Source: a candidate division WWE3 bacterium (lineage in GTDB: Bacteria; Patescibacteriota; WWE3; UBA101185; UBA10185). Taken from it: DNA of 64,000 bases. The stretch covers positions 260,588-324,587 of the forward strand of contig WJKK01000001.1 of assembly GCA_014729135.1 (NCBI GenBank). Reading direction: 5' to 3'. Under the pieces are notes generated by a model that was given only the letters and a program-made list of their open reading frames with translations, searched no databases and was not told the origin of the DNA. A program made the translations under genes and the position numbers. Of this stretch, positions 5,127-47,581 are shown one piece after another; the first letter of the stretch is position 1, and each line of letters opens with the position of its first letter.

Positions 5127-6384
5127 GATGTTTTTTGTTTATGGAGTAGGGTCTACGATTGTTTTTTTGTTTTTGATGGGGGTGGTTTTGGGGTTTTTTG
5201 AGGTGCGAATTCCTCCCTTGCCGGTGCTTTTATTTGTTGGTAGCGTTTTGGTTTCGGCTGTTTTTTCCACACATGTTTATACGTCTTTTTGGGGGTATTT
5301 TTCGCGTTTCAATGGAGGGGCAGTTTCATTGTTGGTTTATTTTGGCCTTTTTGTTGCAGCAACCAGTTTACTTAATCGTCGTGAAATTTTAGGATTTGTT
5401 TTTTACGGGCTGGTGCTAACTTCTGTGCCCATTAGCATTTTGGCTATTTCGCAGTATTTTGGGTGGGGCAACGTTTCTGCCGAGCGCGTTTATTCCACTT
5501 TAGGTCAGGCTAATTGGTTGGCTGCTTATATTTCCTGGGCCGTTTTGCTCTTTGCTCACGTGCTTTTGAAAATGGACTTTAATAAAAAGTTTTTCCTGTG
5601 GTTGTTTCTTTTTGGTTTGTCTTTTATGTGTTTGTGGTTTACGTTTTCTTTATCGGGTCTTTTAAGTTTTGCATTTGGTTTGGTAGCGCTACTTGGGTTA
5701 AATTACAAGGAGTATTTTTTGAAACGTGCTTTTGTTTTGGCCTTTTTAATGCTTTTTGTGGCAGTTTCCTTTCCGGGTTTGTTTTTTCTAAAGTTTCACG
5801 ACGGTCTGCAGGATGTTTTTAACTTGCTTTCCGGATTGTCTGCTTTAACTCCAGTTTTTGCCCAGGATGTTGCCCATAAGGTTTCAGATCCGGGGTTTAT
5901 TCGTTTTGGCTTGTGGAAGGGAACTTTGGATATGATTTTTTCTTCCTGGCGTAATTTTTTATTGGGAACCGGTCCGGAAACTTTTCCCTATCAATTTCCT
6001 TTTTTTCGACCAAATAATTTAAATTTTTCTTCGGAGTGGGATTACATTTTAAATAAACCGCATAACTTTTTTCTGGAGATTTGGGCAGAAACGGGGGTTT
6101 TTAGTCTGCTTTTTTACGCTTGGCTTAATATGAAAGCTATTTTAAAAAAGCATGCTTGGGTTACTCCTTTAATAATTTCGTTTTTGGTTTCCAACTTTTT
6201 TGGATGGCCTACAGTTACAACCTCTCTTTATTTTTGGTTGATGTTGGCTGCGCTTTTTACAGAGGATTCGGCAAGGTCTTTAAAGGATTCTTTTTTTCGA
6301 GATCCTCCTTTGAAGTTGTTGGCAAAGTTTAGAAAACAGCCGGAGCTGCTAAGTCGGGTTTCAAAAAAAATCTTAAATGTCTAA
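5011..6384 (+). CDS. O-antigen ligase/polymerase-like polytopic membrane protein
   Basis: 457 aa with >10 TM segments and a large loop; Wzy_C-like architecture; glycan-gene neighbourhood. Confidence 0.5.
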   Translation: MFLFKSIFTKVLKALFWVLVILTPLIFVSETNELFEFPKMFFVYGVGSTIVFLFLMGVVLGFFEVRIPPLPVLLFVGSVLVSAVFSTHVYTSFWGYFSRFNGGAVSLLVYFGLFVAATSLLNRREILGFVFYGLVLTSVPISILAISQYFGWGNVSAERVYSTLGQANWLAAYISWAVLLFAHVLLKMDFNKKFFLWLFLFGLSFMCLWFTFSLSGLLSFAFGLVALLGLNYKEYFLKRAFVLAFLMLFVAVSFPGLFFLKFHDGLQDVFNLLSGLSALTPVFAQDVAHKVSDPGFIRFGLWKGTLDMIFSSWRNFLLGTGPETFPYQFPFFRPNNLNFSSEWDYILNKPHNFFLEIWAETGVFSLLFYAWLNMKAILKKHAWVTPLIISFLVSNFFGWPTVTTSLYFWLMLAALFTEDSARSLKDSFFRDPPLKLLAKFRKQPELLSRVSKKILNV

Positions 6385-6994
6385 ATCTATAAGTTTTAAA
6401 AAAGTTCCGTTAATAGTTCGTTTGACTTTGATAGCAGGTTTGATGGGGTCTTACGGAGCTTTTATTTCAATTATTTCAGATTTTTACAGGGCGGATTTAA
6501 AAGCGGTGTCTTCCAAAGATGCTCTCCTCCGGGAGGATTTTGATGCGGCTTTGAAACTAGCAAAGGAGGCTGTAGAACTAAATCCGGAAGAACCTTATTA
6601 CTACAGAATGCGCGCTAAGGCTTATTTGGCAAAGGCAGCTGCAACTGAAACTTACGAGTTTAAAAAAGAGGCGCTGGCTGATTTGATGCGTTCTCGTGAG
6701 TTGAATCCTTTGAATTTGGCTACGCTTAGAAATAATATTCCGCTTTATTATTATCTGGCGCTGACTGATTTTTCGCAGCCGTCTAAGCAGGCGGATTTGG
6801 ATAGTGCTTATTTGTCTTTTGCAGAGGCTTATTTTCAGGATTTAAAGGAGATCTACCCTAATGATGCAGGGCTTTTGGTTTCTTTGGCGCATTATGAGAA
6901 GCGTTTAGACCTTTTAGGGGAGTCTAAATCAACGTTGGAGATGATTAAGCAGCTTCGCCCAGCTCTTTTAGACTGGCATCCCCTGTTGCAGTAG
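6377..6994 (+). CDS. membrane-anchored TPR-repeat protein
   Basis: N-terminal TM then TPR-like helical repeats (YYYRMRAKAYLAKAAATE ...). Confidence 0.45.
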   Translation: MSKSISFKKVPLIVRLTLIAGLMGSYGAFISIISDFYRADLKAVSSKDALLREDFDAALKLAKEAVELNPEEPYYYRMRAKAYLAKAAATETYEFKKEALADLMRSRELNPLNLATLRNNIPLYYYLALTDFSQPSKQADLDSAYLSFAEAYFQDLKEIYPNDAGLLVSLAHYEKRLDLLGESKSTLEMIKQLRPALLDWHPLLQ

Positions 6995-14160: not shown

Positions 14161-14189
14161 TTGACAGATATGGCTTTTAGGGTTATAAT
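14161..14189 (+). promoter_or_regulatory. consensus sigma70-like promoter driving the T-box leader
   Basis: TTGACA (14161-14166), 17 nt spacer, TATAAT (14184-14189). Confidence 0.55.
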
Positions 14190-14195
14190 TACCCA

Positions 14196-14540
14196 CGTTA
14201 GTTTGAAAATTAATTAAAAGCTTTGACGGAAGGTCATTAGTAGAATATCTTCAGTGACACCAGAGATTGTGCGGTAGCTGAAAGCACAACGTATGAAGTA
14301 GTTTGAATTACCCTTTCTGAGCTTTCCGACTGAAAAACCTTTTTTAGGTAGTAAGTTGGAACGGGCGATCCCGTTATAGATTTTGGAGTGTGTCACGAAT
14401 CGTAAAACGAAGCAACAGAGCACTTCTCAAGACTCTTATGGTGACATAAGGGTGAATTTAAGGTGGTACCGCGGTAATAAAGCCGTCCTTAGACTTTATC
14501 TATTAATTTAGATGAGGTTTGAGGACGGCTTTTTTTGTTG
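14196..14540 (+). promoter_or_regulatory. T-box riboswitch leader (tRNA-sensing transcription attenuator); specifier tentatively UAC (Tyr)
   Basis: T-box sequence aatttaaGGTGGTACCGCGG (14455-14474); F-box-like CCCGTTATA (14370-14378); AGUA S-turn element and AGAGA box in Stem I; terminator aaagccgtcc...ggacggcttt plus T-tract (14479-14537). Confidence 0.65.
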
Positions 14541-14673: not shown

Positions 14674-14886
14674 ATGGAGATGGAGGTAAGACTAGCCCCT
14701 ATTGGTGGGGGGATCTATGTGTTGAAGTCGGTTGTGAGTGGCGATTTTGTGTGTTTGGACCATGGGGGTACTCCGAGAATCACGAGTTTTGAAAGAGCCC
14801 GGAAGGGGACGGCTCAAGAGTTGGAGGAATTGGTCCGAAACCACATAGGATTGTATCTGCAAGAGGATGAGGCGTTGGGATACTAG
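14674..14886 (+). CDS. small hypothetical protein (70 aa from MEMEV...; ORF track gives 14644)
   Basis: Strong SD aaaggagg 8 nt before ATG 14674; GC content rises through the ORF; no recognised domain. Confidence 0.3.
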   Translation: MEMEVRLAPIGGGIYVLKSVVSGDFVCLDHGGTPRITSFERARKGTAQELEELVRNHIGLYLQEDEALGY

Positions 14887-14916: not shown

Positions 14917-15828
14917 ATGAAAGCTTTACCTGAAAGTTTGGAGGGTTTCAACATCCTCCATGTCGTTTTGGATTCGTTGCGCTTTGACAGCGCGTCCCGG
15001 GCAGATACACCTGTGCTTGATTCCCTGGGGCCACTAATTGCCGCGCGAACTTTGGCACCCTACACTCCCGCAGCACATGCTGCTGCCTGGTTGGGCCACT
15101 TTCCGAGTGCGCCCACATCGGCGCTGCCTTACTACAATGAGACCGTACGGCAGCCCCTACGTATCACCACGGGTCCCGCCCGTGACGCGAACAAAGGCTG
15201 TGGGATGCTTTTGGATGGCGCCGATGTGCTGGATGGCCTGTGTCGAAAGGGTTATTCCACGTTAGGTTGGGGAGGTGTTTCCCAATTTAGTACAGGTAGC
15301 TGGCTTCGCCAGTTTGCCTGGGACCATTTCACTTATTTTGGAGTGGATATGGACGAGGAGCCTCTGGCACCGCGCGCACCTGAAACCTTTCCCTTGAATC
15401 TGAATCGTGTGGGCGAGATTTTGTCCACAATGTCTGATTATGGGAAGGTTCCTTGGTTCCTTTTTCTCAACGACCCCGCGCCACACTATCCCTATGATTG
15501 GGGGGAAGGTATTACCGAGGAAGTGCGGGAGGAGGCTTTTCCCTTGCTTAAGCTCAATCTGCGTTCTCACCATCTTGCCATGGAGAAGCGCGACATGCTG
15601 GCGCTTTATGCCCCTCTCCTTCAGCAGATGCAAGTAGATGGTTTGGAACGTTATATCGATCCTGGTCTTGGGGAACTTTTCAAAGGTCTTCGGCAGATCT
15701 CGGATCGCCCCGTCTTTGCAATTGTGCACGCCGATCATGGTGAGTACTTTGGTGAGGACGGACTGTATGGTCACATGCATGGAGGAATCTATGATATGAC
15801 TGTTCCTCTGTGGATTGGTGTACTCTAA
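14917..15828 (+). CDS. alkaline-phosphatase-superfamily enzyme (sulfatase / nucleotide pyrophosphatase-phosphodiesterase-like); GC-rich, likely acquired
   Basis: N-terminal metal-ligand motif NILHVVLDSLRFD and C-terminal HADHGEYFGE...GHMHGG resemble AlkP-superfamily signatures; local GC (estimated by eye) is far above the flanks. Confidence 0.5.
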   Translation: MKALPESLEGFNILHVVLDSLRFDSASRADTPVLDSLGPLIAARTLAPYTPAAHAAAWLGHFPSAPTSALPYYNETVRQPLRITTGPARDANKGCGMLLDGADVLDGLCRKGYSTLGWGGVSQFSTGSWLRQFAWDHFTYFGVDMDEEPLAPRAPETFPLNLNRVGEILSTMSDYGKVPWFLFLNDPAPHYPYDWGEGITEEVREEAFPLLKLNLRSHHLAMEKRDMLALYAPLLQQMQVDGLERYIDPGLGELFKGLRQISDRPVFAIVHADHGEYFGEDGLYGHMHGGIYDMTVPLWIGVL

Positions 15829-15853
15829 AGGAGGTGAAACAACTATAGTCATC

Positions 15854-15900
15854 GGGCTCCTCGCTCTTGCCAAGCGTCAACTAAGCTTAGCGAGGAGCCC
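15854..15900 (+). terminator. GC-rich hairpin closing the GC-rich block
   Basis: gggctcctcgct (15854-15865) pairs with agcgaggagccc (15889-15900), a 12-bp stem with a 23-nt loop; no clear T-tract. Confidence 0.4.
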
Positions 15901-15938
15901 GGTAGAATTTTACCAGAAACGTTTTAACAAGTTAGAAT

Positions 15939-16520
15939 ATGATTATGAAACTAAAAATACTAGGTATTGCCCAAGATGGGGGAGTACCGCAAATAAATTG
16001 TCAGTGTAAAAATTGTAAGACATCTCGTACTGAAGGTGTGCCTTTGTTTGCGACCTCCTTACTTGTAGAGAGAGCTAAAGGAAAAAGTACCTTAATTGAT
16101 GTTTCTCCCGATATAAAAAATCAGCTGACACCCACTGAATTTAATGGTATAGACAGTATTGTTTTAACCCATGCACATGTAGGTCACATTGGCGGGTTGC
16201 TTCAGTTTGGCTTTGAGATAGCAAATAAAAAAGGCGTTAATCTTTTTGCATCTCCGGAAATGCACTCTTTCTTACAGGATAATGAGCCTTGGAAACAGTT
16301 ATTTGAAAATGGAAATATAGTTCCGTGCAAATTTAGATTTGAAGAAACTTTTGCTCTTGAGGAGTTAAGAGTTACCCCTTTAAAAGTTCCTCATAGGGAT
16401 GAAATAGCAGATACAAGCGGTTTTATATTGGAAGGTGATTTCAAAAAAGTTTTATTTATTCCCGATATTAAGAACTGGCTTGTTTGGGAGAAAGACTTGA
16501 AAGAGGAAGTAAGTAAGTAA
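15939..16520 (+). CDS. MBL-fold metallo-hydrolase (PqqB-like), N-terminal part; interrupted by an in-frame TAA inside a (GTAA)5 repeat
   Basis: LTHAHVGHIGGL metal-binding motif; the ORF ends in ...EVSK* within gtaagtaagtaagtaagtaa. Confidence 0.55.
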   Translation: MIMKLKILGIAQDGGVPQINCQCKNCKTSRTEGVPLFATSLLVERAKGKSTLIDVSPDIKNQLTPTEFNGIDSIVLTHAHVGHIGGLLQFGFEIANKKGVNLFASPEMHSFLQDNEPWKQLFENGNIVPCKFRFEETFALEELRVTPLKVPHRDEIADTSGFILEGDFKKVLFIPDIKNWLVWEKDLKEEVSK

Positions 16521-16529
16521 GTAAGTAAG
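16506..16529 (+). repeat. tetranucleotide repeat, five to six (GTAA)/(AGTA) units
   Basis: gaagtaagtaagtaagtaagtaagg seen directly; it sits between two in-frame ORFs. Confidence 0.8.
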
Positions 16530-16787
16530 GTGGATATTGCCCTTATTGATGGTACCTTTTTTAGTTTAGATGAGTTACCCGGTAGGGATGTTGCGGAAAT
16601 AGGTCATCCCTTAATTAGAGATAGTATTGAGGAATTGGAAGGCTTGTCTGATATCGGGAAAAAGAAAGTTCATTTTATACACTTTAATCACAGCAATCCT
16701 GTTTTGAGTGCCAAAGGAGAAGCGAGGAAATTTATTGCGGAGGCAGGTTTCAATTTGGCGGAGCAAGGAATGGTATTAGAAATATAA
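16530..16787 (+). CDS. MBL-fold metallo-hydrolase (PqqB-like), C-terminal part; same frame as 15939..16520, GTG start
   Basis: Continuation of the beta-lactamase-fold C-terminal region (HFIHFNHSNP); both ORFs start at positions divisible by 3. Confidence 0.45.
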   Translation: MDIALIDGTFFSLDELPGRDVAEIGHPLIRDSIEELEGLSDIGKKKVHFIHFNHSNPVLSAKGEARKFIAEAGFNLAEQGMVLEI

Positions 16788-16797
16788 CTAAGAGTAT

Positions 16798-16883
16798 CCG
16801 GGGATACCAAAGTGGTCAACTGGGGCGGTCTGTAAAACCGCTGGCTTTTGCCTACGCTGGTTCGAATCCAGCTCCCCGGACCA
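16798..16883 (+). tRNA. tRNA-Tyr (anticodon GUA), long variable arm, CCA encoded
   Basis: Acceptor ccgggga/tccccgg; anticodon stem gcggt/accgc with loop CUGUAAA; variable arm tggcttttgcctacgctgg; T-arm gctgg-ttcgaat-ccagc. Confidence 0.8.
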
Positions 16884-16893
16884 ATTTAGAACT

Positions 16894-17976
16894 ATGAAAA
16901 AAGAAGTTAAGAGAAATAAAATTCAGAGGGATTACACGCGCCAAGTGCCTAATCCGGAAGATTTTCAGAGATTTGACCTCTCCGGGGGTAATCCTTGGTT
17001 CCGCGATTTGATTGATGAATGGGTCAGGGAGCTTCCTTTAGATACCCTTATTCATTTTCCTGATAATTTTTCTCGAGTTAAAGCTTTATTAGCGGATTGG
17101 TTAGGTGTTCCTTCTGATATGTTATTCATCAATAATGGTAGCGATTCTATTATAGAGTTACTCCCTAGAGTATTTTTAAAGAGTGATGCCTCTGTAGTCG
17201 TTCCCGTGCCCACCTTCTTTAGATTTATTCAGGCCTCGGAGCGTAATTGCAACAATGTCATAAAAGTTCGTTTTGGAAATAATTTTGTTTGGACACCTGC
17301 GTTTCTTGAACGTTTTTTAACCTCTGTGAACGATCCCTCAGTAAAGCTTGCTTGGTTGGCCAGTCCTAATAACCCCACAGGACTATGTATTCCCCCAGCA
17401 ATGTTAAAAGAAGTTCTTCGTACTGGAAAGCTTGTCGTTTTAGATAGGGCTTTAAATGGATTTGCCCCCGATTTGAGGAAGGACACCTATCTATTAGAGG
17501 AATATCCCAATTTGATTATCTTATCAAGTTTCTCGAAGAATTTCGGGTTGGCGGGATTACGCTTTGGGTTTAGTTTAGCCTCTCCCTCAAATACGCAAAA
17601 ATTGAGGGAATATTCCCTGCCCTTTACCGTTTCCGGTCCTTCTCTGTGGTTTATGGAACGCTTTTTACACTGTCTTGTCCAAGGTGTTGTTTCTGGTGAG
17701 GACTCGGCATCTATCGAGTCTTCGAGGCTTGAGTTAGAGAATTCCCTGCGAACCATCCCGGGATTAGAAGTTGTTTCTGGTTCGCAGGCAAACTTTCTTA
17801 TGTTTCGTCATTCCATGGAGCCTGACTTGTTTGGTAGGTTAAAGGATAGTGGGATTTTAGTTGCTGATTTGAACAATACCTCCGGAATTGAGGGAGAGGG
17901 TTTTGTTCGAATGACCATTCGTAGTGTTTCTGAGAATAGAAAGTTTGTTGAAAAATTAAAGGAGATAGTCGGCTAA
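16894..17976 (+). CDS. class I/II PLP-dependent aminotransferase (HisC/aromatic aminotransferase-like)
   Basis: LASPNNPTG and the PLP-lysine context SFSKNFGLAGLRFG. Confidence 0.75.
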   Translation: MKKEVKRNKIQRDYTRQVPNPEDFQRFDLSGGNPWFRDLIDEWVRELPLDTLIHFPDNFSRVKALLADWLGVPSDMLFINNGSDSIIELLPRVFLKSDASVVVPVPTFFRFIQASERNCNNVIKVRFGNNFVWTPAFLERFLTSVNDPSVKLAWLASPNNPTGLCIPPAMLKEVLRTGKLVVLDRALNGFAPDLRKDTYLLEEYPNLIILSSFSKNFGLAGLRFGFSLASPSNTQKLREYSLPFTVSGPSLWFMERFLHCLVQGVVSGEDSASIESSRLELENSLRTIPGLEVVSGSQANFLMFRHSMEPDLFGRLKDSGILVADLNNTSGIEGEGFVRMTIRSVSENRKFVEKLKEIVG

Positions 17977-17981
17977 GCTGT

Positions 17982-18452
17982 ATGTGGACTTTTGAAAAAA
18001 TAACCTCACTTTTGAGGAGAAGAGGTATTGCTTTTGAAGAAATTCACTTTATGGATGACGGAGCCGTTTCGGCCCGTGCTGCAGATACATCAAAAAACAA
18101 TAACTATGATCCTGACAAGGCTATCAAAACCCTAGTTGTTGTTTCGGGTGACTTCTTGTACGGTGTTGTATTGCGCGCAGATAGTCGCATCGACTCTATC
18201 AAGTTAAAAAAATTGATAGGGAAATGGAGTGTAGTTTCCCTAGATGCTTTAGAGGATTTGGGGTTTGTGCCCGGTGGAGTTAACCCTTTTGTTCTGGATT
18301 TTCCTGTCTTTGCGGATGCTGCAGTTTTGGATTTACCTTTTCTTAGCATGGGTGCCGGTAGTCGAACTAAAGGCATCAACGTTTCTGTATCTGAGTTTGA
18401 AAAAAACCTTGATTATAAAGTTATAGACATAAAGGAGAATGTAAGTACATGA
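17982..18452 (+). CDS. YbaK/ProX-family aminoacyl-tRNA deacylase (trans-editing protein)
   Basis: 156 aa; the KTLVVVSGD...FVPGGVNPF pattern is typical of the YbaK editing domain; it sits directly upstream of tyrS. Confidence 0.6.
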   Translation: MWTFEKITSLLRRRGIAFEEIHFMDDGAVSARAADTSKNNNYDPDKAIKTLVVVSGDFLYGVVLRADSRIDSIKLKKLIGKWSVVSLDALEDLGFVPGGVNPFVLDFPVFADAAVLDLPFLSMGAGSRTKGINVSVSEFEKNLDYKVIDIKENVST

Positions 18453-19582
18453 CTACAAAAGAGAAGTTTAATTTAATTGAGCGTAACACTGAAGAAGTAA
18501 TTATGCCCGAGGAGTTAAAAGGGCTTTTGGATGCAGAGGAAAAGCTTAAGCATTACATTGGTTTCGAGATTTCCGGAAAAATACATTTAGGAACTGGTCT
18601 AATGTGTATGGGTAAAGTAAAAGATTTTATGGAGGCTGGTGTTGAGTGTACGATTTTTTTGGCAGACTGGCATACTTGGATAAACGATAAGTTGGGGGGA
18701 GATATGGAGACAATCCAGGAGATTGCTGTCGGCTATTTTAAGGAGGGTTTGAAAGCCTCCTTGAAAGCCCTCGGAGGCGATCCCGAAAAACTGAATTTTG
18801 TTTTGGGAAGTGAGCTTTACCACAACAATGATGCGTATTGGGCTACCGTTATTGAAGTGTCTAAGAACATAACTTTGTCTCGGAATTTGCGCAGTATCTC
18901 TATTATGGGACGCGAGGAGGGTGAAGGAGTGGATTTTGCTAAATTGATTTATCCACCCATGCAAGTTGCGGATATTTTTGCACAAGGGATTACCTTAGCG
19001 CATGCGGGCATGGATCAGCGTAAGGCCCATGTAGTTATGCGTGACGTTGCGGACAAACTCACTATTTGTCCTGCAAGGAACTCTTTGGGGAAGAAGATCA
19101 AACCCTTAGCAGTGCATCATCCCCTTCTTCTAGGTTTACAGAAACCTCCTATGTGGCCTGTTCCAAAAGAAAAATTGCGTGATGTATGGGCTTCTGCAAA
19201 AATGAGCAAGTCCAAGCCCAAATCTGCTGTTTTTATTACGGATTCTCCTGATGAGATACGGGAAAAGATTCTGGATGCTTTTTGTCCTCAGAACAATGCG
19301 GAGTTTAACCCTGTTTTAGATTGGGTAAAGCGCCTTGTTTTTATGAGCCCTTCGACGATTTTTGAAGTGGATCGCGAAGAAAGGTTTGGGGGTAAAATTT
19401 CTTTTAGCTCTTTTGCGGAAGTAGAAGACGCTTTTGTTTCAGGAGATTTACATTCGCAGGATTTAAAAAGAGCCCTGGCCGAATTTTTGGTAGTTTTGTT
19501 GGAACCTGTTAGGGAGCACTTTGATCTTTCGGAGAATAAAAAGTTATTAGAGCGTATGAACGACTTAGCGATTACTCGTTAG
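18449..19582 (+). CDS. tyrS: tyrosine--tRNA ligase, archaeal/eukaryotic type
   Basis: Near-collinear with Methanocaldococcus TyrRS: FNLIERNTEEV, GFEISGKIHLG (HIGH-like) and KMSKSKP (KMSKS); 377 aa. Confidence 0.85.
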   Translation: MTTKEKFNLIERNTEEVIMPEELKGLLDAEEKLKHYIGFEISGKIHLGTGLMCMGKVKDFMEAGVECTIFLADWHTWINDKLGGDMETIQEIAVGYFKEGLKASLKALGGDPEKLNFVLGSELYHNNDAYWATVIEVSKNITLSRNLRSISIMGREEGEGVDFAKLIYPPMQVADIFAQGITLAHAGMDQRKAHVVMRDVADKLTICPARNSLGKKIKPLAVHHPLLLGLQKPPMWPVPKEKLRDVWASAKMSKSKPKSAVFITDSPDEIREKILDAFCPQNNAEFNPVLDWVKRLVFMSPSTIFEVDREERFGGKISFSSFAEVEDAFVSGDLHSQDLKRALAEFLVVLLEPVREHFDLSENKKLLERMNDLAITR

Positions 19583-19597
19583 AATCTCTTAATGAAA

Positions 19598-19632
19598 CGA
19601 GAAACCCCGGAAAATCCGGGGTTTCTTTGTTT
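19598..19632 (+). terminator. bidirectional rho-independent terminator between tyrS and hsp20
   Basis: gaaaccccgg-aaaat-ccggggtttc followed by TTTGTTT. Confidence 0.55.
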
Positions 19633-43365: not shown

Positions 43366-43675
43366 ATTGAAAAATAAATACTAAAAGCTATGATGAAGAG
43401 AGTACCAATAGGAAACGGTTTTACAGAGAGCGGTGCAAAGGTGAGAGTGCCGCATTTACGCCCTTTTGGGAACAAAGCTTCGGAGCTGCTGGAAGAAATT
43501 GCGTTTCGCGCAAGAGTAGAACCGTGCCGGGAGAGCCCGTTATAGCCGAAAACCTTGCTAGAGGTTGTAAGGCCTGTCTGGAAACGGATAGGTAAAAAGA
43601 GGTGGTACCGCGACAATAATCGCCCTCATTTGGATCTAAGTATATGCTTGGGTTTAGGTGAGGGCGTTTTTTGTT
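43366..43675 (+). promoter_or_regulatory. T-box riboswitch leader; specifier tentatively AAA (Lys)
   Basis: Stem I parallels the glyQS Stem I: K-turn AUGAUGA, GAAG, AGAGAGUA, upper stem ccaatagg/ccttttgg, loop GAACAAAG, CUUC. F-box CCCGTTATA (43536-43544), T-box GGTGGTACCGCGA (43601-43613), terminator cgccctca...tgagggcg plus T-tract (43621-43672). Confidence 0.65.
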
Positions 43676-43720: not shown

Positions 43721-44908
43721 ATGGGGAAGCAAGTTTTGGTGATGGGGGTTAGGCGGCAATATCAGTTCGACGGAGATTGGGGAGACTGGCTTCGGCTCGG
43801 TGTTCGGCGTCTTCTGACTTTACAGTCAGGAGATGTTGCAGTCCTGCCGGAGATTTGGGGCATTCCCGAGTATGTGGAGCACTTGCAGGAGGTTTGGGGT
43901 ATCAATTTGGAGGTCCTGTGGGTGAGCGGTAGGTTTTACCTCCTGGATAGCGCTATTCTGGAGACCCCGAGGGTTCTCGGGCGTCTTCAGGAACTGGGAG
44001 GACAAGGTGCAGTTTTTGTGCTGTACGATAGTTCGACGTCACACTTCCAGTCTTGGTGGCGATTGATGCCGCAGGAAGCTCGTTTGTGTGGAGAGACTTT
44101 GGAGTGGGGTAGTCGATGGAACACCAAGAAGTGGTTGTACCGAGACGCTAGGAATCCAGAGCAACCTTCGATTGCCGAACGGTTGGATATTCCGGTACTC
44201 TCAGGCTACAATGCAGGATCCGTCGCGGAGCTGTTGAAGGCTTGGGACCTAATAGGATGTGGCTCGGTTATCATCAAGCCGTTGACAGCGGCGTTTGGTG
44301 ACGGTTTGGTGGTTGCGCATGAACGGAGTGATTTGGAGTCCTATACTTTCCCACTCGGTTCGGTGGGTGTGGAGGAGTATGTGGAAGGTTATCCCCAGCC
44401 TTGGTCCACCCACTGGGTAGGGGAGGAGCTGCTTGGACCTCCGACTTCCCAGCTTCTTCACGGGAGCACTGCCGTGGGAAACGTCACTCCAGGGGATTTT
44501 GACGCGGCGATGCAGGGGCAGCTTCTGGCGTTGACCCGTGAGTTTGTTCGGGCAGCCCAGCCCCGCGGCTATGGGGGCCTCAACGGGTTGATCGACGCCG
44601 AAGGGGTACCCCGCGTGACGGATGCCAATTGTAGGGAGACGGGTGTTTGCTCGACGCTCGTTTTCCGTGACCGTTATTGTCCCGGGGCGGTGACGGTAAA
44701 CAAGAAGTTGGGGAGACCTAACATGTCCGTTGGAGATGCTTGGCAGTGTCTTCAAGCGGCAGGCTTAGCATTCGACATCTCGGCGCGACGAGGAATAGCC
44801 CTCCAGGGGTGGTTACCCTCGATGTGGAGTCGCATGACCTGCGCCGCAGACACGAGGCAAGAGGCCTTAGAGCTGCTCAATGCAGCAAAGGAGGCTTTAG
44901 GTATGTAA
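43721..44908 (+). CDS. ATP-grasp-fold enzyme (RimK/LysX-like ligase family); GC-rich, likely acquired
   Basis: Strong SD aaggagg. VIIKPLTAAFGDGLVV (central ATP-grasp lysine strand), VGVEEYVEGY (E-x-Y-I/V hinge), LIDAEGVPRVTDANCRETG (Mg-binding Asp/Asn loop). Local GC (estimated by eye) is well above the flanks. Confidence 0.5.
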   Translation: MGKQVLVMGVRRQYQFDGDWGDWLRLGVRRLLTLQSGDVAVLPEIWGIPEYVEHLQEVWGINLEVLWVSGRFYLLDSAILETPRVLGRLQELGGQGAVFVLYDSSTSHFQSWWRLMPQEARLCGETLEWGSRWNTKKWLYRDARNPEQPSIAERLDIPVLSGYNAGSVAELLKAWDLIGCGSVIIKPLTAAFGDGLVVAHERSDLESYTFPLGSVGVEEYVEGYPQPWSTHWVGEELLGPPTSQLLHGSTAVGNVTPGDFDAAMQGQLLALTREFVRAAQPRGYGGLNGLIDAEGVPRVTDANCRETGVCSTLVFRDRYCPGAVTVNKKLGRPNMSVGDAWQCLQAAGLAFDISARRGIALQGWLPSMWSRMTCAADTRQEALELLNAAKEALGM

Positions 44909-44927: not shown

Positions 44928-44976
44928 GCGATGGGAGGGTATGGGCCGGTTGGATATCGTCCAACCCTCCTATCGC
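44928..44976 (+). terminator. long imperfect GC-rich hairpin closing the second GC-rich block
   Basis: gcgatgggagg...[ggttgg-atatcgt-ccaacc]...cctcctatcgc nested stems 20 nt after the ATP-grasp stop. Confidence 0.4.
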
Positions 44977-44996
44977 GCATCAATTGTAAGGTAAAA

Positions 44997-46091
44997 ATGA
45001 TAAACAGACAAAGATTAATAAATACATTTTTAGAAATAGTTCAGATTGATAGCCCTTCGGGTGCGGAAGGAGCTATGGTGGAATACGTAACTTCTTTTCT
45101 ACACGCGTTAGGAGTGCGCCATGTAGTGGATTCTTTTGGCAACGTTATTGCTTATACTGAAGGTTCCGGAGGGCCTCTCTTGTTAAGTGCGCACTTAGAT
45201 ACAGTTGAGCCCGGAAGAGCTATTGCTCCTGTCATTGAAGACGGCTTTATCAGAAGTTCCGGCGACACCATTTTAGGCGCTGATAACAAGGTTGCAGTAG
45301 CCTCTCTGTTGGAGTTGATACGTACACTGACGGAAGCATCTGTAACCGATATTCCTTCTTTAGAGGTTATTTTTACGCTTTCAGAGGAAGTTGCGAATTT
45401 GGGAGCTGTAAATCTTGATTATTCTCTTCTGAGTGCGCGAGAAGGTTTTACTTTTGATAGTGGAAGTTCTTTGGGTACAGTTATTACCGACTCTCCTTTC
45501 TATAATCGGTTTGATATAGTTGTTAATGGTGTTGCCTGCCATGCAGGACATCCGGAAAGAGGCCTAAATGCTTTAAGTTTGGTGGTTAATGCGCTATCTC
45601 AAATTACTCTGGGTCAGACCGGTCTTGAAACCACTTGCAACATAGGTTTGATTGAGGGGGGAGTTGCACGCAATATTGTCCCCGGGCAAATTACTCTCCG
45701 AGGAGAAGTACGCAGTTTTGTAGAGAGTGTCCTAGAGGAAATGTGCACGGATATTAGTAGCGTTTTTCAGAAAGTAGTTGCAGAAAATGAGGGCTCCGTG
45801 GAAATAGAGATTGTTCGCGAAAATAGTGGCTTCAGTTTTTCTGCTGATGACCCTCTGTTGAGATACACTATGCGAATTCTAGAAGATTTAGAGCTTTCCC
45901 CAACCCCGCGTGTTTCTACGGGTTGTTATGATGCTAACATATTTCAGGAGCATGGGATTTGTGTTCTAAACTTGGGTAATGGTTCCGTGGATAATCACAC
46001 AATTAGGGAAAAGATTTCTGTGGTAGACTTAGAAATGCTGGCAAACCTTGTATATAGTTTAGTGATGGGTTTTAATAGGTACAGGAATTAA
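44997..46091 (+). CDS. M20-family metallopeptidase (PepT/tripeptidase-like); the ORF-track start 44931 lies inside the upstream hairpin, so ATG 44997 is preferred
   Basis: MINRQRLINTFLEIVQIDSPSG, HLDTVEPG and the dimerisation-domain layout of M20B peptidases. Confidence 0.7.
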   Translation: MINRQRLINTFLEIVQIDSPSGAEGAMVEYVTSFLHALGVRHVVDSFGNVIAYTEGSGGPLLLSAHLDTVEPGRAIAPVIEDGFIRSSGDTILGADNKVAVASLLELIRTLTEASVTDIPSLEVIFTLSEEVANLGAVNLDYSLLSAREGFTFDSGSSLGTVITDSPFYNRFDIVVNGVACHAGHPERGLNALSLVVNALSQITLGQTGLETTCNIGLIEGGVARNIVPGQITLRGEVRSFVESVLEEMCTDISSVFQKVVAENEGSVEIEIVRENSGFSFSADDPLLRYTMRILEDLELSPTPRVSTGCYDANIFQEHGICVLNLGNGSVDNHTIREKISVVDLEMLANLVYSLVMGFNRYRN

Positions 46092-46105: not shown

Positions 46106-47581
46106 ATGTCGACAATAGCAGATCTTCGTAAGGTAAGGCTTGAACAACTGGAGAAAATAAAAAAGCTTGGTTTAAATCCCTATCCTGCTGAATCCAAAAA
46201 AGACTATCCAAATAAAGAAATTCTAGATAATTTTGAGGATCTTGAAGGCAAGAGCGCAAATATTACAGGGCGCATAACTTCAATACGTGAACATGGAGCT
46301 TTAGTTTTCATAGATTTAGCCGATGAGTCCGGTGTAATTCAACTTTATATTAGAGAGGACACACTAAAAGCAACAGATCTCCAAGATCAGATTTTAGGTT
46401 TTGACCATATAAGCCTTTTAGGTACAGGTGATTTTATTCAAGCTTTTGGAGAAGTTACAAAAACAAAGTCGGGTCAAATTTCCCTAAAAGTAGAATCACT
46501 AAAACTTCTCTCAAAGTCCTTGCGACCAATCCCGGAAGAACTAAAAGATATTGAAGAGCGTTACCGCAAACGTTACCTGGATTTTCTACTAAATCCCCGT
46601 TCAAAGGAAATCTTGGATACGCGTTGGAAAATAGAGGAAGAAACACGTAAATTCCTTTGGAATCAAGGATTTAAAGAGGTGGAAACTCCCATTTTGCAGA
46701 CGCTTTATGGAGGTACTAATGCCGAACCTTTTACAACACATTTTAATGCTTTAAATACCGATTTTTATCTTCGTATAGCCCCAGAACTTTATTTAAAGCG
46801 TTTAATAGTGGGAGGTTACGAAAAAGTTTTTGAAATAGCCCGCAACTTTAGAAACGAGGGCATAGATCAAACGCACTTTCCTGAATTTACAATGCTTGAA
46901 TGGTATGAGGCTTATGCTGATTACCATCGGGTTATGGATTTAGCGGAGGCTTTGACAAAGCATCTGGTCTTGAAATTAACAGGCGGAACAACAATAAAAG
47001 TTAATGATCAAGAAATAGATATTAGCGGTACTTGGCCACGTATTCCTGTAGAGGATTTGGCGAAGGAACACCTGGGCATTGAGTGGGATTCCATAGCGGA
47101 TGATGAAATTAAGGATCTGTTGAATAAGCACAAAATTCAAGTTGCAGGTGTTTGGGATCGGGAAAAAGCTTTGTTTACTTTGTATGATCATCTGGTTACG
47201 CCTAAATTAATAGAGCCTGTTTGGGCAATAGATTATCCGCAGTCTGTAAGTCCTTTATCTAAGGCGCATAGAACCAAGGAAAAGCGTGCAGAAAGATTTG
47301 AAGGTTACATTGGAGGTGTGGAGATTTTTGACGGATGGAGTGAGATTGTTTCAGGTCTTGAACAACGTCGTCGTTTTGAGGTGGAGCAGCGAAACATGAA
47401 AGAGGGCGATAAGGAAGCCATGCCTTTAGATGAGGAGTTTATTGAAGCCTTAGAGTACGGTTGCCCTCCTTTGGGTGGAATTGGTTTTGGGATTGACCGC
47501 TTGGTTATGTTTTTAACGGATACTTGGGGTATAAAAGATGTTGTAGCCTTCCCGATTTTAAAGCCTCGCTCCGATAGTTAA
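46106..47581 (+). CDS. lysS: lysine--tRNA ligase (class II)
   Basis: N-terminal OB-fold anticodon-binding domain; class II motifs (FRNEGID, LGGIGFGIDRLVM); 491 aa. Confidence 0.9.
   Translation: MSTIADLRKVRLEQLEKIKKLGLNPYPAESKKDYPNKEILDNFEDLEGKSANITGRITSIREHGALVFIDLADESGVIQLYIREDTLKATDLQDQILGFDHISLLGTGDFIQAFGEVTKTKSGQISLKVESLKLLSKSLRPIPEELKDIEERYRKRYLDFLLNPRSKEILDTRWKIEEETRKFLWNQGFKEVETPILQTLYGGTNAEPFTTHFNALNTDFYLRIAPELYLKRLIVGGYEKVFEIARNFRNEGIDQTHFPEFTMLEWYEAYADYHRVMDLAEALTKHLVLKLTGGTTIKVNDQEIDISGTWPRIPVEDLAKEHLGIEWDSIADDEIKDLLNKHKIQVAGVWDREKALFTLYDHLVTPKLIEPVWAIDYPQSVSPLSKAHRTKEKRAERFEGYIGGVEIFDGWSEIVSGLEQRRRFEVEQRNMKEGDKEAMPLDEEFIEALEYGCPPLGGIGFGIDRLVMFLTDTWGIKDVVAFPILKPRSDS

What the first reader, a model, noticed from the sequence alone, without database searches (positions are those of the whole stretch)
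14161..14540. T-box riboswitch leader with consensus promoter, far from any synthetase start
Seen directly: a perfect TTGACA-17-TATAAT promoter, followed about 260 nt later by the T-box motif aatttaaGGTGGTACCGCGG, a CCCGTTATA F-box-like element, and a canonical terminator hairpin plus U-tract. Stem I can be folded by hand like the glyQS Stem I, with an AGUA element on the 5' strand and GAAUUACCC on the 3' strand of the specifier loop. Reading GAA-N-codon gives UAC (Tyr). The nearest downstream synthetase on this strand is tyrS, about 3.9 kb away, preceded by tRNA-Tyr. Alternative registers give UUA (Leu) or AUU (Ile), so the specifier call is tentative. The two minus-strand ORFs called across this leader are artefacts.
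Basis: partly seen in the sequence, partly recalled or inferred. Interest (0 to 1): 0.75.

Follow-up and report, generated by a model that had tools for sequence, protein, structure and literature searches.

The report
Tyrosine T-box riboswitch operon leader
This is a genuine tyrosine-sensing T-box riboswitch in a tiny-genome WWE3 (CPR) bacterium, heading a five-kilobase operon that ends in an archaeal-type tyrosyl-tRNA synthetase and, unusually, also contains the gene for the very tRNA the riboswitch senses.

Summary
Window 14161-14540 holds the only perfect TTGACA-17-TATAAT in 64 kb, a full-length Rfam T-box (RF00230, 108.5 bits, cutoff 93), and a weak antiterminator that shares a strand with a very strong terminator plus U-tract.

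Six homologous leaders from relatives show compensatory changes in Stem I, antiterminator and terminator.

The Tyr call is supported. All seven leaders read xAA-N-UAC-C, while the rival UUA/AUU triplets are not conserved, and every operon ends in a TyrRS.

The leader is not an orphan. It heads an operon of sulfatase-like hydrolase, PqqB-like MBL (interrupted), tRNA-Tyr(GUA), HisC-like aminotransferase, YbaK-like deacylase and archaeal-type TyrRS.

In 6 of 6 WWE3-type loci the tRNA-Tyr gene (C1:G72, A73) lies inside the T-box operon. In one, only about 17 nt separate the terminator from the tRNA. None of 93 reference T-box leaders has a tRNA within 6 kb downstream.

The archaeal-type TyrRS/tRNA-Tyr pair in WWE3 was published in 2017. 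Its T-box control was not found in the searchable literature.

Verdict: an ordinary family member by mechanism, with an unusual target and a shifted specifier. Co-transcription is inferred, not shown.

The parts
14161..14189 (+). Sigma-70-type promoter, TTGACA-17-TATAAT. The predicted transcription start is near 14196, about 17 nt before the T-box model begins.
   Evidence: 12/12 match. Unique in the window, with 0/100 shuffles giving a match. Homologous leaders have TTGACA-17-TAAGAT (L081), TTGACA-17-TAACAT (L085) and TTGACA-17-TAGTAT (L218, read) at the same relative position.
14214..14493 (+). T-box leader RNA: Stem I with K-turn, specifier loop and distal AG bulge/loop; Stem II; the IIA/B-F-box region; Stem III; and the antiterminator.
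   Evidence: RF00230, 108.5 bits, model positions 1-219 of 219, E = 4.9e-23. In the Stem I consensus fold, 12 of 23 pairs show compensatory changes across 6 leaders.
14305..14312 (+). 3' side of the specifier loop, GAAUUACC. GAA (14305-14307) is the S-turn partner of AGUA (14239-14242). The specifier UAC (Tyr) is at 14309-14311. The trailing C at 14312 can pair with an invariant G.
   Evidence: Invariant in 6 WWE3-type leaders; L218 reads CAAAUACC. The helix below the loop covaries (G-C to A-U at the second pair) while the closing G-C is invariant. The reference B. subtilis tyrS loop is GAA-UAC-A-helix (PMC2879506).
14460..14490 (+). Antiterminator, with helix A1 (AAGG/CCUU) and helix A2 (GCGGU/GCCGU). 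The 7-nt bulge is UGGUACC, and its UGGU (14464-14467) is complementary to the ACCA 3' end of tRNA-Tyr.
   Evidence: -7.3 kcal/mol. 98.4% of cells pair and 3 pairs show compensatory change across 7 leaders; the slid controls fall to 29-59%. All six operon tRNAs end in A73-CCA.
14480..14538 (+). Intrinsic terminator, a roughly 23-bp hairpin followed by U7. Its 5' strand (14482-14490) is the 3' strand of the antiterminator.
   Evidence: -35.8 kcal/mol. 9 of 22 pairs show compensatory changes across 7 leaders.
14674..14886 (+). 70-aa ORF with a strong Shine-Dalgarno (GGAGG, 6 nt upstream). It has no family assignment and is not conserved in relatives, so its status is uncertain.
   Evidence: No similarity to the small ORFs at the same position in L095 or L218.
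14917..15828 (+). Sulfatase-like (alkaline-phosphatase superfamily) hydrolase, 303 aa, with GC 0.53 against 0.41 for the window.
   Evidence: Weak STM4013-family hit. Homologues carry PF00884 Sulfatase. The 57%-identical homologue in L218 also lies behind a Tyr T-box.
15939..16787 (+). PqqB-like metallo-beta-lactamase-fold gene, interrupted by a (GTAA)5 repeat at about 16508-16528 that puts a TAA stop in every frame.
   Evidence: The intact 273-aa L218 orthologue aligns across the stop as a single HSP at 48% identity.
16798..16883 (+). tRNA-Tyr (anticodon GUA), with C1:G72, A73, an encoded CCA and a long variable arm. This is the predicted ligand of the riboswitch, encoded inside the regulated unit.
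   Evidence: It starts 10 nt after the preceding ORF and ends 10 nt before the next.
16894..17976 (+). HisC-family class I/II aminotransferase, 360 aa. It is a candidate aromatic aminotransferase making Tyr from 4-hydroxyphenylpyruvate; that function is inferred.
   Evidence: PF00155. TIGR01141 hisC at 179 bits, below its cutoff.
17982..18452 (+). Free-standing YbaK-like aminoacyl-tRNA editing-domain protein, 156 aa.
   Evidence: PF04073 tRNA_edit. The same gene precedes tyrS in L081, L092 and L095.
18449..19582 (+). Archaeal/eukaryal-type tyrosyl-tRNA synthetase, 377 aa. It overlaps the preceding gene by 4 nt.
   Evidence: NF006330 (PRK08560), 407.6 bits against a cutoff of 220. 100% identical to a candidate division WWE3 protein; the next-best hits are 72% identical and then DPANN archaea at 63-66%.
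19600..19626 (.). GC-rich palindromic hairpin between the convergent tyrS and hsp20 genes; the likely operon end.
   Evidence: It was called on the minus strand, but the stem is self-complementary.

Best explanation
The element is a transcriptional T-box riboswitch specific for tRNA-Tyr. Transcription starts at a consensus promoter near 14196.

Stem I presents the triplet UAC (14309-14311) to the GUA anticodon. Its distal AG bulge and loop dock on the tRNA elbow. The UGGU of the antiterminator bulge pairs with the free ACCA end of uncharged tRNA-Tyr. That pairing stabilises a weak antiterminator against a much stronger terminator, so RNA polymerase reads on. Charged tRNA-Tyr cannot do this, and transcription stops at the U-tract near 14538.

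Read-through expresses one operon of about 5.1 kb (14.2-19.6 kb). It encodes a sulfatase-like hydrolase, a PqqB-like MBL enzyme (interrupted here), the tRNA-Tyr gene itself, a HisC-like aminotransferase, a YbaK-like deacylase and an archaeal-type TyrRS. The circuit therefore raises tyrosine supply, tRNA-Tyr and its synthetase together when tRNA-Tyr charging falls.

Shown here: family membership, the mutually exclusive folds, covariation, conservation of UAC, conserved gene order, and the presence of tRNA-Tyr in the operon in all relatives.

Inferred: actual tRNA binding, co-transcription across the whole 5 kb, and the enzymes' roles in tyrosine supply.
For: - Family and switch: RF00230 at 108.5 bits over the full model. 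Antiterminator -7.3 against terminator -35.8 kcal/mol, sharing a strand.
- Covariation: compensatory changes in Stem I (12 of 23 pairs), terminator (9 of 22) and antiterminator (98.4% paired, 3 pairs).
- Homologous leaders precede TyrRS operons in L085, L081, L092, L093, L095 and L218 at 92-105 bits; the 5'-truncated L092 scores 53.5.
- Specifier: xAA-N-UAC-C is invariant in 7 of 7 leaders.
- Acceptor-end match: UGGU in all leaders matches A73-CCA in all six operon tRNAs.
- Operon continuity in the window: gene gaps downstream of the MBL gene's start (15939) are no more than 10 nt, or overlap. No promoter-like site lies on the + strand between 15938 and the tRNA, and there is no convincing internal terminator.
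- Relatives: in L081 the tRNA-Tyr gene begins about 17 nt after the terminator U-tract. In L085 no promoter-like site lies between the leader promoter and the tRNA or tyrS.
- Same-genome precedent: a second T-box with a canonical Lys specifier lies about 2.5 kb upstream of a class II D/K/N-type synthetase, with an M20 peptidase between.
Against: - Nothing here is experimental. No transcript data show that read-through reaches the tRNA or tyrS 2.3-3.9 kb downstream.
- A 110-nt gap at 15829-15938 contains weak (9/12) promoter-like matches.
- The specifier loop departs from the characterised rule. The nucleotide 3' of the codon is C, not the conserved purine that contacts tRNA U33 in B. subtilis tyrS (PMC2879506). 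If the invariant G-C closing pair forms, the default TBDB '+0' frame (PMC7778990) would read UUA.
- One gene of the operon (the MBL) is interrupted, so part of the unit may be decaying.
Confidence: 0.8

Rival explanations
1. The T-box is functional but controls only the proximal genes (the 70-aa ORF, the sulfatase-like gene and the MBL). The tRNA-Tyr, aminotransferase, YbaK-like gene and tyrS would then be transcribed from an internal promoter that the consensus scan cannot see, so the tRNA gene is not under riboswitch control in this genome.
For: The synthetase is 3.9 kb from the terminator. CPR promoters are poorly characterised. Weak promoter-like matches exist at 15909-15938. The MBL gene just upstream of the tRNA is disrupted, which would be tolerated more easily if the downstream genes had their own promoter.
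Against: Intergenic gaps around the tRNA are 10 nt on each side, and tyrS overlaps its upstream gene. No + strand promoter-like site lies between 15938 and 16894, and there is no convincing terminator. In L081 the tRNA follows the T-box terminator by about 17 nt. In L085 it follows the only intervening gene by 7 nt, with no promoter-like site. All six relatives keep the T-box, tRNA-Tyr and tyrS on one strand in one cluster.
Confidence: 0.15
2. The specifier is not Tyr. In the default register (three bases followed by one unpaired base before the helix), the loop GAAUUAC|C reads UUA. The riboswitch would then sense tRNA-Leu(UAA), or AUU/tRNA-Ile in the -1 register.
For: If the invariant G-C pair closes the loop, the loop is 7+7 nt, like B. 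subtilis tyrS and O. iheyensis glyQ. The default frame then gives UUA followed by C. The UGGU bulge would also match the A73 that I recall for tRNA-Leu and tRNA-Ile (background knowledge; not checked here).
Against: L218's homologous leader reads CAAAUACC. That keeps UAC but turns UUA into AUA and AUU into AAU. All seven operons encode TyrRS, and six encode tRNA-Tyr(GUA). UAC makes up 99% of Tyr specifiers, whereas UUA is 1% of Leu and AUU 1% of Ile specifiers in TBDB, and NNC specifiers are preferred overall (PMC7778990). The same genome's Lys T-box uses the GAA-N-NNN-R register.
Confidence: 0.03
3. The leader is an evolutionary relic that no longer switches. It would act as a constitutive attenuator, or be bypassed altogether.
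For: The terminator is unusually strong (-35.8 kcal/mol) relative to the antiterminator (-7.3). The trailing purine of the specifier is missing. One operon gene is broken.
Against: All functional motifs are intact and score above Rfam's curated threshold. Compensatory substitutions maintain Stem I, antiterminator and terminator across leaders that are only about 73% identical on average. The promoter is a perfect consensus.
Confidence: 0.02

Closest known systems
Bacillus subtilis tyrS T-box leader (the founding Tyr-specific T-box; specifier-loop structure PDB 2KHY, PMC2879506)
   Same: It is a transcriptional T-box with a UAC specifier for tRNA-Tyr(GUA). It has an AGUA/GAA loop-E (S-turn) above the specifier, a UGGN bulge pairing with the NCCA end, mutually exclusive antiterminator and terminator folds, and it regulates a tyrosyl-tRNA synthetase gene.
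   Different: - In B. subtilis the loop is GAA-UAC-A-helix, with an unpaired purine that contacts tRNA U33. Here it is GAA-U-UAC-C, so the codon sits one position closer to the helix, and the following base is a C that can pair with an invariant G.
- B. subtilis tyrS follows its leader directly and encodes a bacterial-type TyrRS. Here tyrS is the last gene of a 5-kb operon and is archaeal-type.
- Here the ligand tRNA carries C1:G72, and its gene lies inside the operon.
T-box-regulated multigene amino-acid operons of Firmicutes (for example S. aureus metICFE-mdh, PMC3771891; the regulons catalogued in PMC2494555 and TBDB, PMC7778990)
   Same: One T-box leader controls several genes for supply of the cognate amino acid. 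The specifier can be used to guess the substrate of unknown downstream enzymes.
   Different: The catalogued targets I am aware of are synthetases, biosynthetic enzymes, transporters and regulators. I found no catalogued case with the cognate tRNA gene in the regulated unit, and 0 of 93 reference leaders had any tRNA gene within 6 kb downstream. The enzymes here (sulfatase-like, PqqB-like MBL, and AstE/AspA-like in relatives) are not known tyrosine-pathway genes.
Archaeal-type TyrRS with C1:G72 tRNA-Tyr in CPR bacteria (Mukai, Reynolds, Crnkovic and Soll, Life 2017; PMC5370408)
   Same: It is the same synthetase type and the same tRNA identity, reported for Katanobacteria (WWE3) among other CPR phyla. 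Both V-arm-containing and V-arm-lacking tRNA-Tyr were reported. The window's tRNA is the V-arm type and the relatives' are V-arm-lacking.
   Different: That paper does not mention a T-box, or an operon context for the Tyr pair (0 occurrences of 'T-box'/'T box'). It describes a tRNA-synthetase operon only for the Trp pair.
tRNA genes co-transcribed with protein-coding genes (for example the E. coli thrU-tyrU-glyT-thrT-tufB operon; background knowledge)
   Same: A tRNA embedded in a polycistronic transcript has to be excised by RNase P and 3' processing enzymes.
   Different: Those operons are not gated by a riboswitch that senses the embedded tRNA.

Membership tests
T-box leader (Rfam RF00230) | Covariance-model score at or above the curated gathering threshold over the full model | tested here: met
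   108.5 bits against 93, model positions 1-219 of 219, E = 4.9e-23.
T-box leader (Rfam RF00230) | Stem I with a specifier loop that has an AGUA/GAA S-turn above a triplet complementary to a tRNA anticodon | tested here: met
   AGUA is at 14239-14242, GAA at 14305-14307 and UAC at 14309-14311. The triplet is complementary to the GUA anticodon of the operon tRNA. The flanking helices covary.
T-box leader (Rfam RF00230) | An unpaired conserved purine immediately 3' of the specifier, which contacts tRNA U33 | tested here: not met
   The base after UAC is C in all 7 homologous leaders and faces an invariant G. The rule and the B. subtilis reference are from PMC2879506. This feature is conserved but not defining; TBDB allows such '+1' frames.
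T-box leader (Rfam RF00230) | Stem I distal AG bulge and distal loop motifs that form the tRNA-elbow platform | tested here: met
   AGAGA (14262-14266) and GCGGNNGNUGNAAGC are invariant in the leaders and align to the model consensus. Docking itself was not tested.
T-box leader (Rfam RF00230) | The 14-nt T-box sequence forming an antiterminator whose 7-nt bulge starts UGGN, with N complementary to the tRNA discriminator | tested here: met
   The bulge is UGGUACC, and U pairs with A73 of all six operon tRNA-Tyr genes.
T-box leader (Rfam RF00230) | Mutually exclusive and more stable terminator (transcriptional class), followed by a U-tract | tested here: met
   Terminator -35.8 against antiterminator -7.3 kcal/mol, sharing strand 14482-14490, with a U7 tract.
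T-box leader (Rfam RF00230) | Uncharged cognate tRNA induces read-through and charged tRNA does not | not testable with these tools
   This needs in vitro antitermination or in vivo reporter assays.
Tyr-specific T-box regulon | Downstream genes concern tyrosine (tyrS, or Tyr synthesis or uptake) | tested here: met
   TyrRS scores 407.6 bits to NF006330. tRNA-Tyr is in the operon. TyrRS is present in all 7 homologous operons. The roles of the other enzymes are unknown.
Archaeal-identity Tyr pair in CPR (Mukai et al. 2017) | Archaeal/eukaryal-type TyrRS lacking the bacterial S4-like C-terminal domain, together with a tRNA-Tyr bearing C1:G72 | tested here: met
   The PRK08560-type TyrRS is 377 aa and its only Pfam hit is PF00579. 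Its closest non-WWE3 relatives are DPANN archaea. All six operon tRNAs start with C and have G72 and A73.

The most novel reading that the evidence does not exclude
In WWE3 bacteria the T-box gates transcription of its own ligand. The tRNA-Tyr gene, possibly the only one in these roughly 0.9-Mb genomes, is made only by read-through of a terminator that uncharged tRNA-Tyr itself suppresses, and it is co-expressed with its synthetase.

That would be a riboswitch-controlled tRNA gene. It would form an autocatalytic loop on the tRNA, balanced by negative feedback through TyrRS and fixing the tRNA:synthetase ratio.

It would also be a natural case of a bacterial riboswitch wired to a laterally acquired, archaeal-identity tRNA/synthetase pair. 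This would show that T-box recognition is blind to the 1:72 pair and the variable arm that define aminoacylation identity.
Probability: 0.55. Interest if true: 0.7.

Novelty: new member of a known kind. Interest (0 to 1): 0.5.

Why it matters
- It places working-looking T-box riboswitches in the Candidate Phyla Radiation: two in this 64-kb window, and six more in related contigs. I found no paper in the searchable library that links T-boxes with CPR or Patescibacteria.
- It shows how a synthetase and tRNA identity set borrowed from archaea was placed under a typically bacterial control element.
- If the tRNA gene really is transcribed through the leader, this would be the first riboswitch-controlled tRNA gene that I could find, and an unusual feedback design.
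- The Tyr and Lys specifiers tag neighbouring genes of unknown function as candidate amino-acid salvage enzymes, in organisms that cannot make amino acids. These are the sulfatase-like hydrolase, the PqqB-like MBL, the AstE/AspA-like deacylase, an M20 peptidase and several unassigned proteins.

Tried and rejected
- Genome-collection scan with a TyrRS alignment. It returned 80 loci, nearly all DPANN or Asgard archaea and Chloroflexota. None carries the T-box core motif, and none of the 17 bacterial loci has a co-oriented tRNA-Tyr.
- Metagenome scan with a Stem I distal pattern. I reused these loci as a reference set for specifier-loop layout and as the tRNA baseline.
- Exact look-up of the window's TyrRS. 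It is not on record, so the rest of the 864-kb genome could not be fetched. Whether a second tRNA-Tyr or a bacterial TyrRS exists elsewhere is untested.
- P0009 and P0010 contexts. These had no T-box or tRNA called (L086 and L089 scanned) and different neighbourhoods, so I set them aside.
- The idea that the GC-rich 70-aa ORF and sulfatase-like gene are a recent random insertion between the leader and its true target. I rejected it because L218 has the same T-box, sulfatase-like, MBL, TyrRS order.
- The idea that the small ORF after the leader is a conserved peptide gene. I rejected it because the ORFs in the window, L095, L218 and L216 share no significant similarity, and the one in L218 overlaps its terminator.
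- A four-base specifier-anticodon pairing (UUAC with G34-A37). I dropped it because L218 has A, not U, before UAC.
- Cluster look-up for taxon names of the relatives. It returned no organism names.
Full report
**1. The observation**

- The promoter TTGACA-17-TATAAT at 14161-14189 is a 12/12 match. It is the only such site in the whole window, with none in 100 dinucleotide-preserving shuffles.
- Rfam's T-box model RF00230 matches 14214-14493 on the + strand from the first to the last model position. The score is 108.5 bits against a gathering score of 93, with E = 4.9e-23 (repeated).
- The leader folds much better than shuffled versions (z = -5.3).
- The T-box sequence GGUGGUACCGCG (14462-14473) can form the canonical antiterminator at 14460-14490 (helices AAGG/CCUU and GCGGU/GCCGU, 7-nt bulge UGGUACC). 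Its energy is -7.3 kcal/mol.
- The antiterminator's 3' strand, GCCGUCCUU (14482-14490), is also the 5' strand of a roughly 23-bp terminator hairpin of -35.8 kcal/mol, followed by seven U.

**2. Source and neighbourhood**

The TyrRS encoded at 18449-19582 is 100% identical to a protein of a 'candidate division WWE3 bacterium' on an 864-kb contig. WWE3 (Katanobacteria) belongs to the Candidate Phyla Radiation.

Downstream of the leader, all on the + strand, lie:
- a 70-aa ORF with a strong ribosome-binding site but no family;
- a GC-rich sulfatase-like hydrolase (14917-15828);
- a PqqB-like metallo-beta-lactamase-fold gene (15939-16787);
- tRNA-Tyr(GUA) (16798-16883);
- a HisC-family aminotransferase (16894-17976);
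- a YbaK-like editing-domain protein (17982-18452);
- an archaeal-type TyrRS (NF006330, 407.6 bits).

From the MBL gene's start (15939) onward, gaps are 10 nt or less, or the genes overlap. The scan found no + strand promoter-like site between 15938 and the tRNA, and no convincing internal terminator. A GC-rich hairpin at 19600-19626 separates tyrS from a convergent hsp20 gene.

**3. Relatives**

A scan of one genome per species with a TyrRS alignment returned mainly DPANN and Asgard archaea and Chloroflexota. None of those loci carries the T-box core motif.

I then looked up the contigs of the closest TyrRS proteins (66-72% identical) directly. Every one with enough upstream sequence has a homologous T-box on the same strand:

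| Locus | T-box position (score) | Gene order after the T-box |
|---|---|---|
| L085 | 1345-1600 (100.3 bits) | AstE/AspA-like deacylase, tRNA-Tyr, TyrRS |
| L081 (WWE3 CG08_land_8_20_14_0_20_41_10) | 6675-6934 (92 bits) | tRNA-Tyr, AstE/AspA-like, 448-aa unknown, YbaK-like, TyrRS |
| L092 | 5'-truncated (53.5 bits) | AstE/AspA-like, 512-aa unknown, tRNA-Tyr, YbaK-like, B3_4-domain protein, TyrRS |
| L093 | 123-381 (103.3 bits) | AstE/AspA-like, 377-aa unknown, 56-aa ORF, tRNA-Tyr, TyrRS |
| L095 | 940-1196 (104.9 bits) | 70-aa ORF, tRNA-Tyr, YbaK-like, TyrRS |

A search with the sulfatase-like protein led to L218/L219. There a T-box (5457-5753, 104.1 bits) precedes a 57%-identical sulfatase-like gene, an intact PqqB-like MBL gene and a bacterial-type TyrRS with an S4 domain, but no tRNA gene.

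So the sulfatase-like/MBL pair is a conserved Tyr-T-box module, not a random insertion. A leader far from its synthetase is the normal layout in this group.

**4. Structure support**

The leaders average 73% column identity.

- Stem I: RNAalifold on six leaders predicts 23 pairs, 12 with compensatory changes.
- Terminator: on seven 3' domains, 9 of 22 pairs show compensatory changes.
- Antiterminator: counted explicitly on the same alignment, 98.4% of cells pair and three pairs show double changes. Sliding the partner strand by 1-3 columns drops pairing to 29-59%.

With only seven related sequences these numbers are supportive rather than statistically decisive. They agree with the covariance-model scores.

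**5. Specifier**

All six WWE3-type leaders read GAAUUACC on the 3' side of the specifier loop, and L218 reads CAAAUACC. The common core is therefore xAA-N-UAC-C.

UAC is.
- UAC is complementary to the GUA anticodon of the tRNA encoded in the operon.
- All seven operons encode a TyrRS.
- In TBDB, UAC accounts for 99% of Tyr specifiers, while UUA is 1% of Leu and AUU 1% of Ile specifiers (PMC7778990).

The register deserves a comment. In the solved B. subtilis tyrS specifier domain the strand is GAA-UAC-A followed by the helix, and the unpaired A contacts tRNA U33 (PMC2879506). The gut T-boxes fetched show both GAA-NNN-R-helix and GAA-N-NNN-R-helix. The window's own second T-box reads GAA-C-AAA-G-helix.

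In the Tyr leaders the base after UAC is always C and faces an invariant G. The next pair down covaries between G-C and A-U. Two readings follow:
- the G-C pair forms, and the codon abuts the helix (TBDB's '+1' frame); or
- the pair stays open, and C replaces the conserved purine.

Sequence alone cannot decide between them. In both cases the U33 contact seen in B. subtilis is lost. This is a real but modest departure from the canonical loop.

**6. The tRNA in the operon**

All six operons with the archaeal-type TyrRS contain a tRNA-Tyr(GUA) gene between the leader and tyrS. All six tRNAs have C1, G72, A73 and an encoded CCA.

- A73 matches the U of the UGGU bulge found in every leader.
- The five relatives have a short variable arm, as in archaeal tRNA-Tyr. 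The window's tRNA has a long one, as in bacterial tRNA-Tyr.
- In L081 only about 17 nt separate the terminator's U-tract from the first base of the tRNA, which leaves no room for a separate promoter.
- In L085 the tRNA starts 7 nt after the single intervening gene, with no promoter-like site anywhere after the leader promoter.
- In the window it starts 10 nt after the MBL gene.

As a baseline, I took 93 distinct T-box leaders from the metagenome scan, 47 of them with at least 2 kb downstream. None has any tRNA gene within 6 kb downstream. The same pipeline finds all six tRNA-Tyr genes in the WWE3-type loci. Other bacteria with archaeal-type TyrRS do not have this linkage.

The most economical reading is that the riboswitch gates transcription of its own ligand's gene together with the synthetase. 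This is inferred from gene layout. It has not been shown with transcripts, and I could not check whether another tRNA-Tyr gene exists elsewhere in the genome.

**7. Mechanism proposed**

Uncharged tRNA-Tyr would bind the nascent leader at three points: anticodon to UAC, elbow to the Stem I distal platform, and ACCA to UGGU. This would hold the weak antiterminator long enough for polymerase to pass the terminator.

The read-through transcript encodes putative tyrosine-supply enzymes, more tRNA-Tyr, a trans-editing factor and TyrRS. RNase P and 3' processing would release the tRNA and cut the transcript in two.

Rising TyrRS and tyrosine would convert the inducer to Tyr-tRNA-Tyr and shut the operon off. 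Basal read-through would have to supply the first tRNA molecules.

**8. Relation to published work**

Mukai et al. 2017 (PMC5370408) reported archaeal-type TyrRS with C1:G72 tRNA-Tyr, with or without a V-arm, in several CPR phyla including WWE3. So the synthetase/tRNA pair is already known.

That paper does not mention a T-box or an operon for the Tyr pair. Full-text searches that combined T-box terms with 'Candidate Phyla Radiation' or 'Patescibacteria' returned nothing. Searches for T-box operons containing tRNA genes returned no such case. The library does not hold most subscription journals, so this is absence of evidence only.

**9. Verdict**

By mechanism and family it is an ordinary T-box, so I file it as a new member of a known kind. 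Three things make it more than routine:
- the host (CPR);
- the target, an operon that includes the cognate tRNA gene and an archaeal-type synthetase;
- the shifted specifier with no trailing purine.

Interest is 0.5. It would be higher if co-transcription of the tRNA and its uniqueness in the genome were shown.

Noticed in passing
window 43381-43630 (+), operon to 47581: There is a second T-box leader, missed at Rfam's gathering threshold (89.8 bits against 93, E = 3e-20). It has a canonical specifier loop, GAA-C-AAA-G (Lys), the T-box sequence at 43601 and a terminator with a U-tract near 43668. It precedes a GC-rich 395-aa protein with no family, an M20-family peptidase (44931-46091) and a class II D/K/N-type synthetase (46106-47581), presumably LysRS. 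Lys T-boxes are among the rarest classes in TBDB.
   Followed up: partly
window about 16508-16528: A (GTAA)5 tetranucleotide repeat sits inside the PqqB-like MBL gene and puts a TAA stop in every reading frame. This splits the gene into 193-aa and 85-aa ORFs in the same frame. The intact L218 orthologue aligns straight across it (48% identity, one HSP). The gene could be a pseudogene, a two-piece gene with re-initiation at the GTG at 16530, or an assembly artefact.
   Followed up: partly
window 14917-15828 and 43721-44908: The first sizeable gene after each of the two T-boxes is markedly GC-rich (0.53 and 0.565) against 0.41 for the window. The L218 sulfatase-like homologue is also richer than its surroundings (0.457 against 0.373). 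The cause is unknown; it could be lateral origin or composition of the protein family.
   Followed up: partly
L081 7083-9421; L085 1647-2609; L092 255-2752; L093 442-2531: In the relatives, the gene behind the Tyr T-box is an AstE/AspA-family (aspartoacylase/desuccinylase-like) protein. In three of the four it is followed by a 377-512-aa protein with no Pfam family. From background knowledge, mammalian aminoacylase 3 of this family deacetylates N-acetyl aromatic amino acids, so an N-acyl-tyrosine salvage role is a lead worth testing.
   Followed up: no
window 17982-18452; L081 9524-10000; L092 2958-4124; L095 1703-2098: A free-standing YbaK-like editing-domain gene directly precedes the archaeal-type tyrS in four of six operons. 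L092 adds a free-standing B3_4 domain, which is the PheRS-beta editing fold. This suggests trans-editing linked to Tyr/Phe discrimination.
   Followed up: no
window 16798-16883 compared with L085 2617-2691 and others: Within one clade of closely related operons, the tRNA-Tyr has a long, bacterial-style variable arm in the window but a 5-nt, archaeal-style one in all five relatives. The acceptor stem and the anticodon stem-loop are nearly identical. The same T-box family evidently accommodates both tRNA shapes.
   Followed up: partly
L081 1-1916, 11489-14978 and flanks: In the WWE3 CG08 contig, the Tyr operon lies between the 16S and 23S rRNA genes. Both rRNA genes are interrupted by LAGLIDADG homing-endonuclease ORFs, and there is a weak group II intron domain hit at 2186-2277.
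   Followed up: no
L095 125-194: There is a DUF3800-IX RNA (RF02968, 51.3 bits) next to a DUF3800 protein gene, upstream of the Tyr T-box operon.
   Followed up: no
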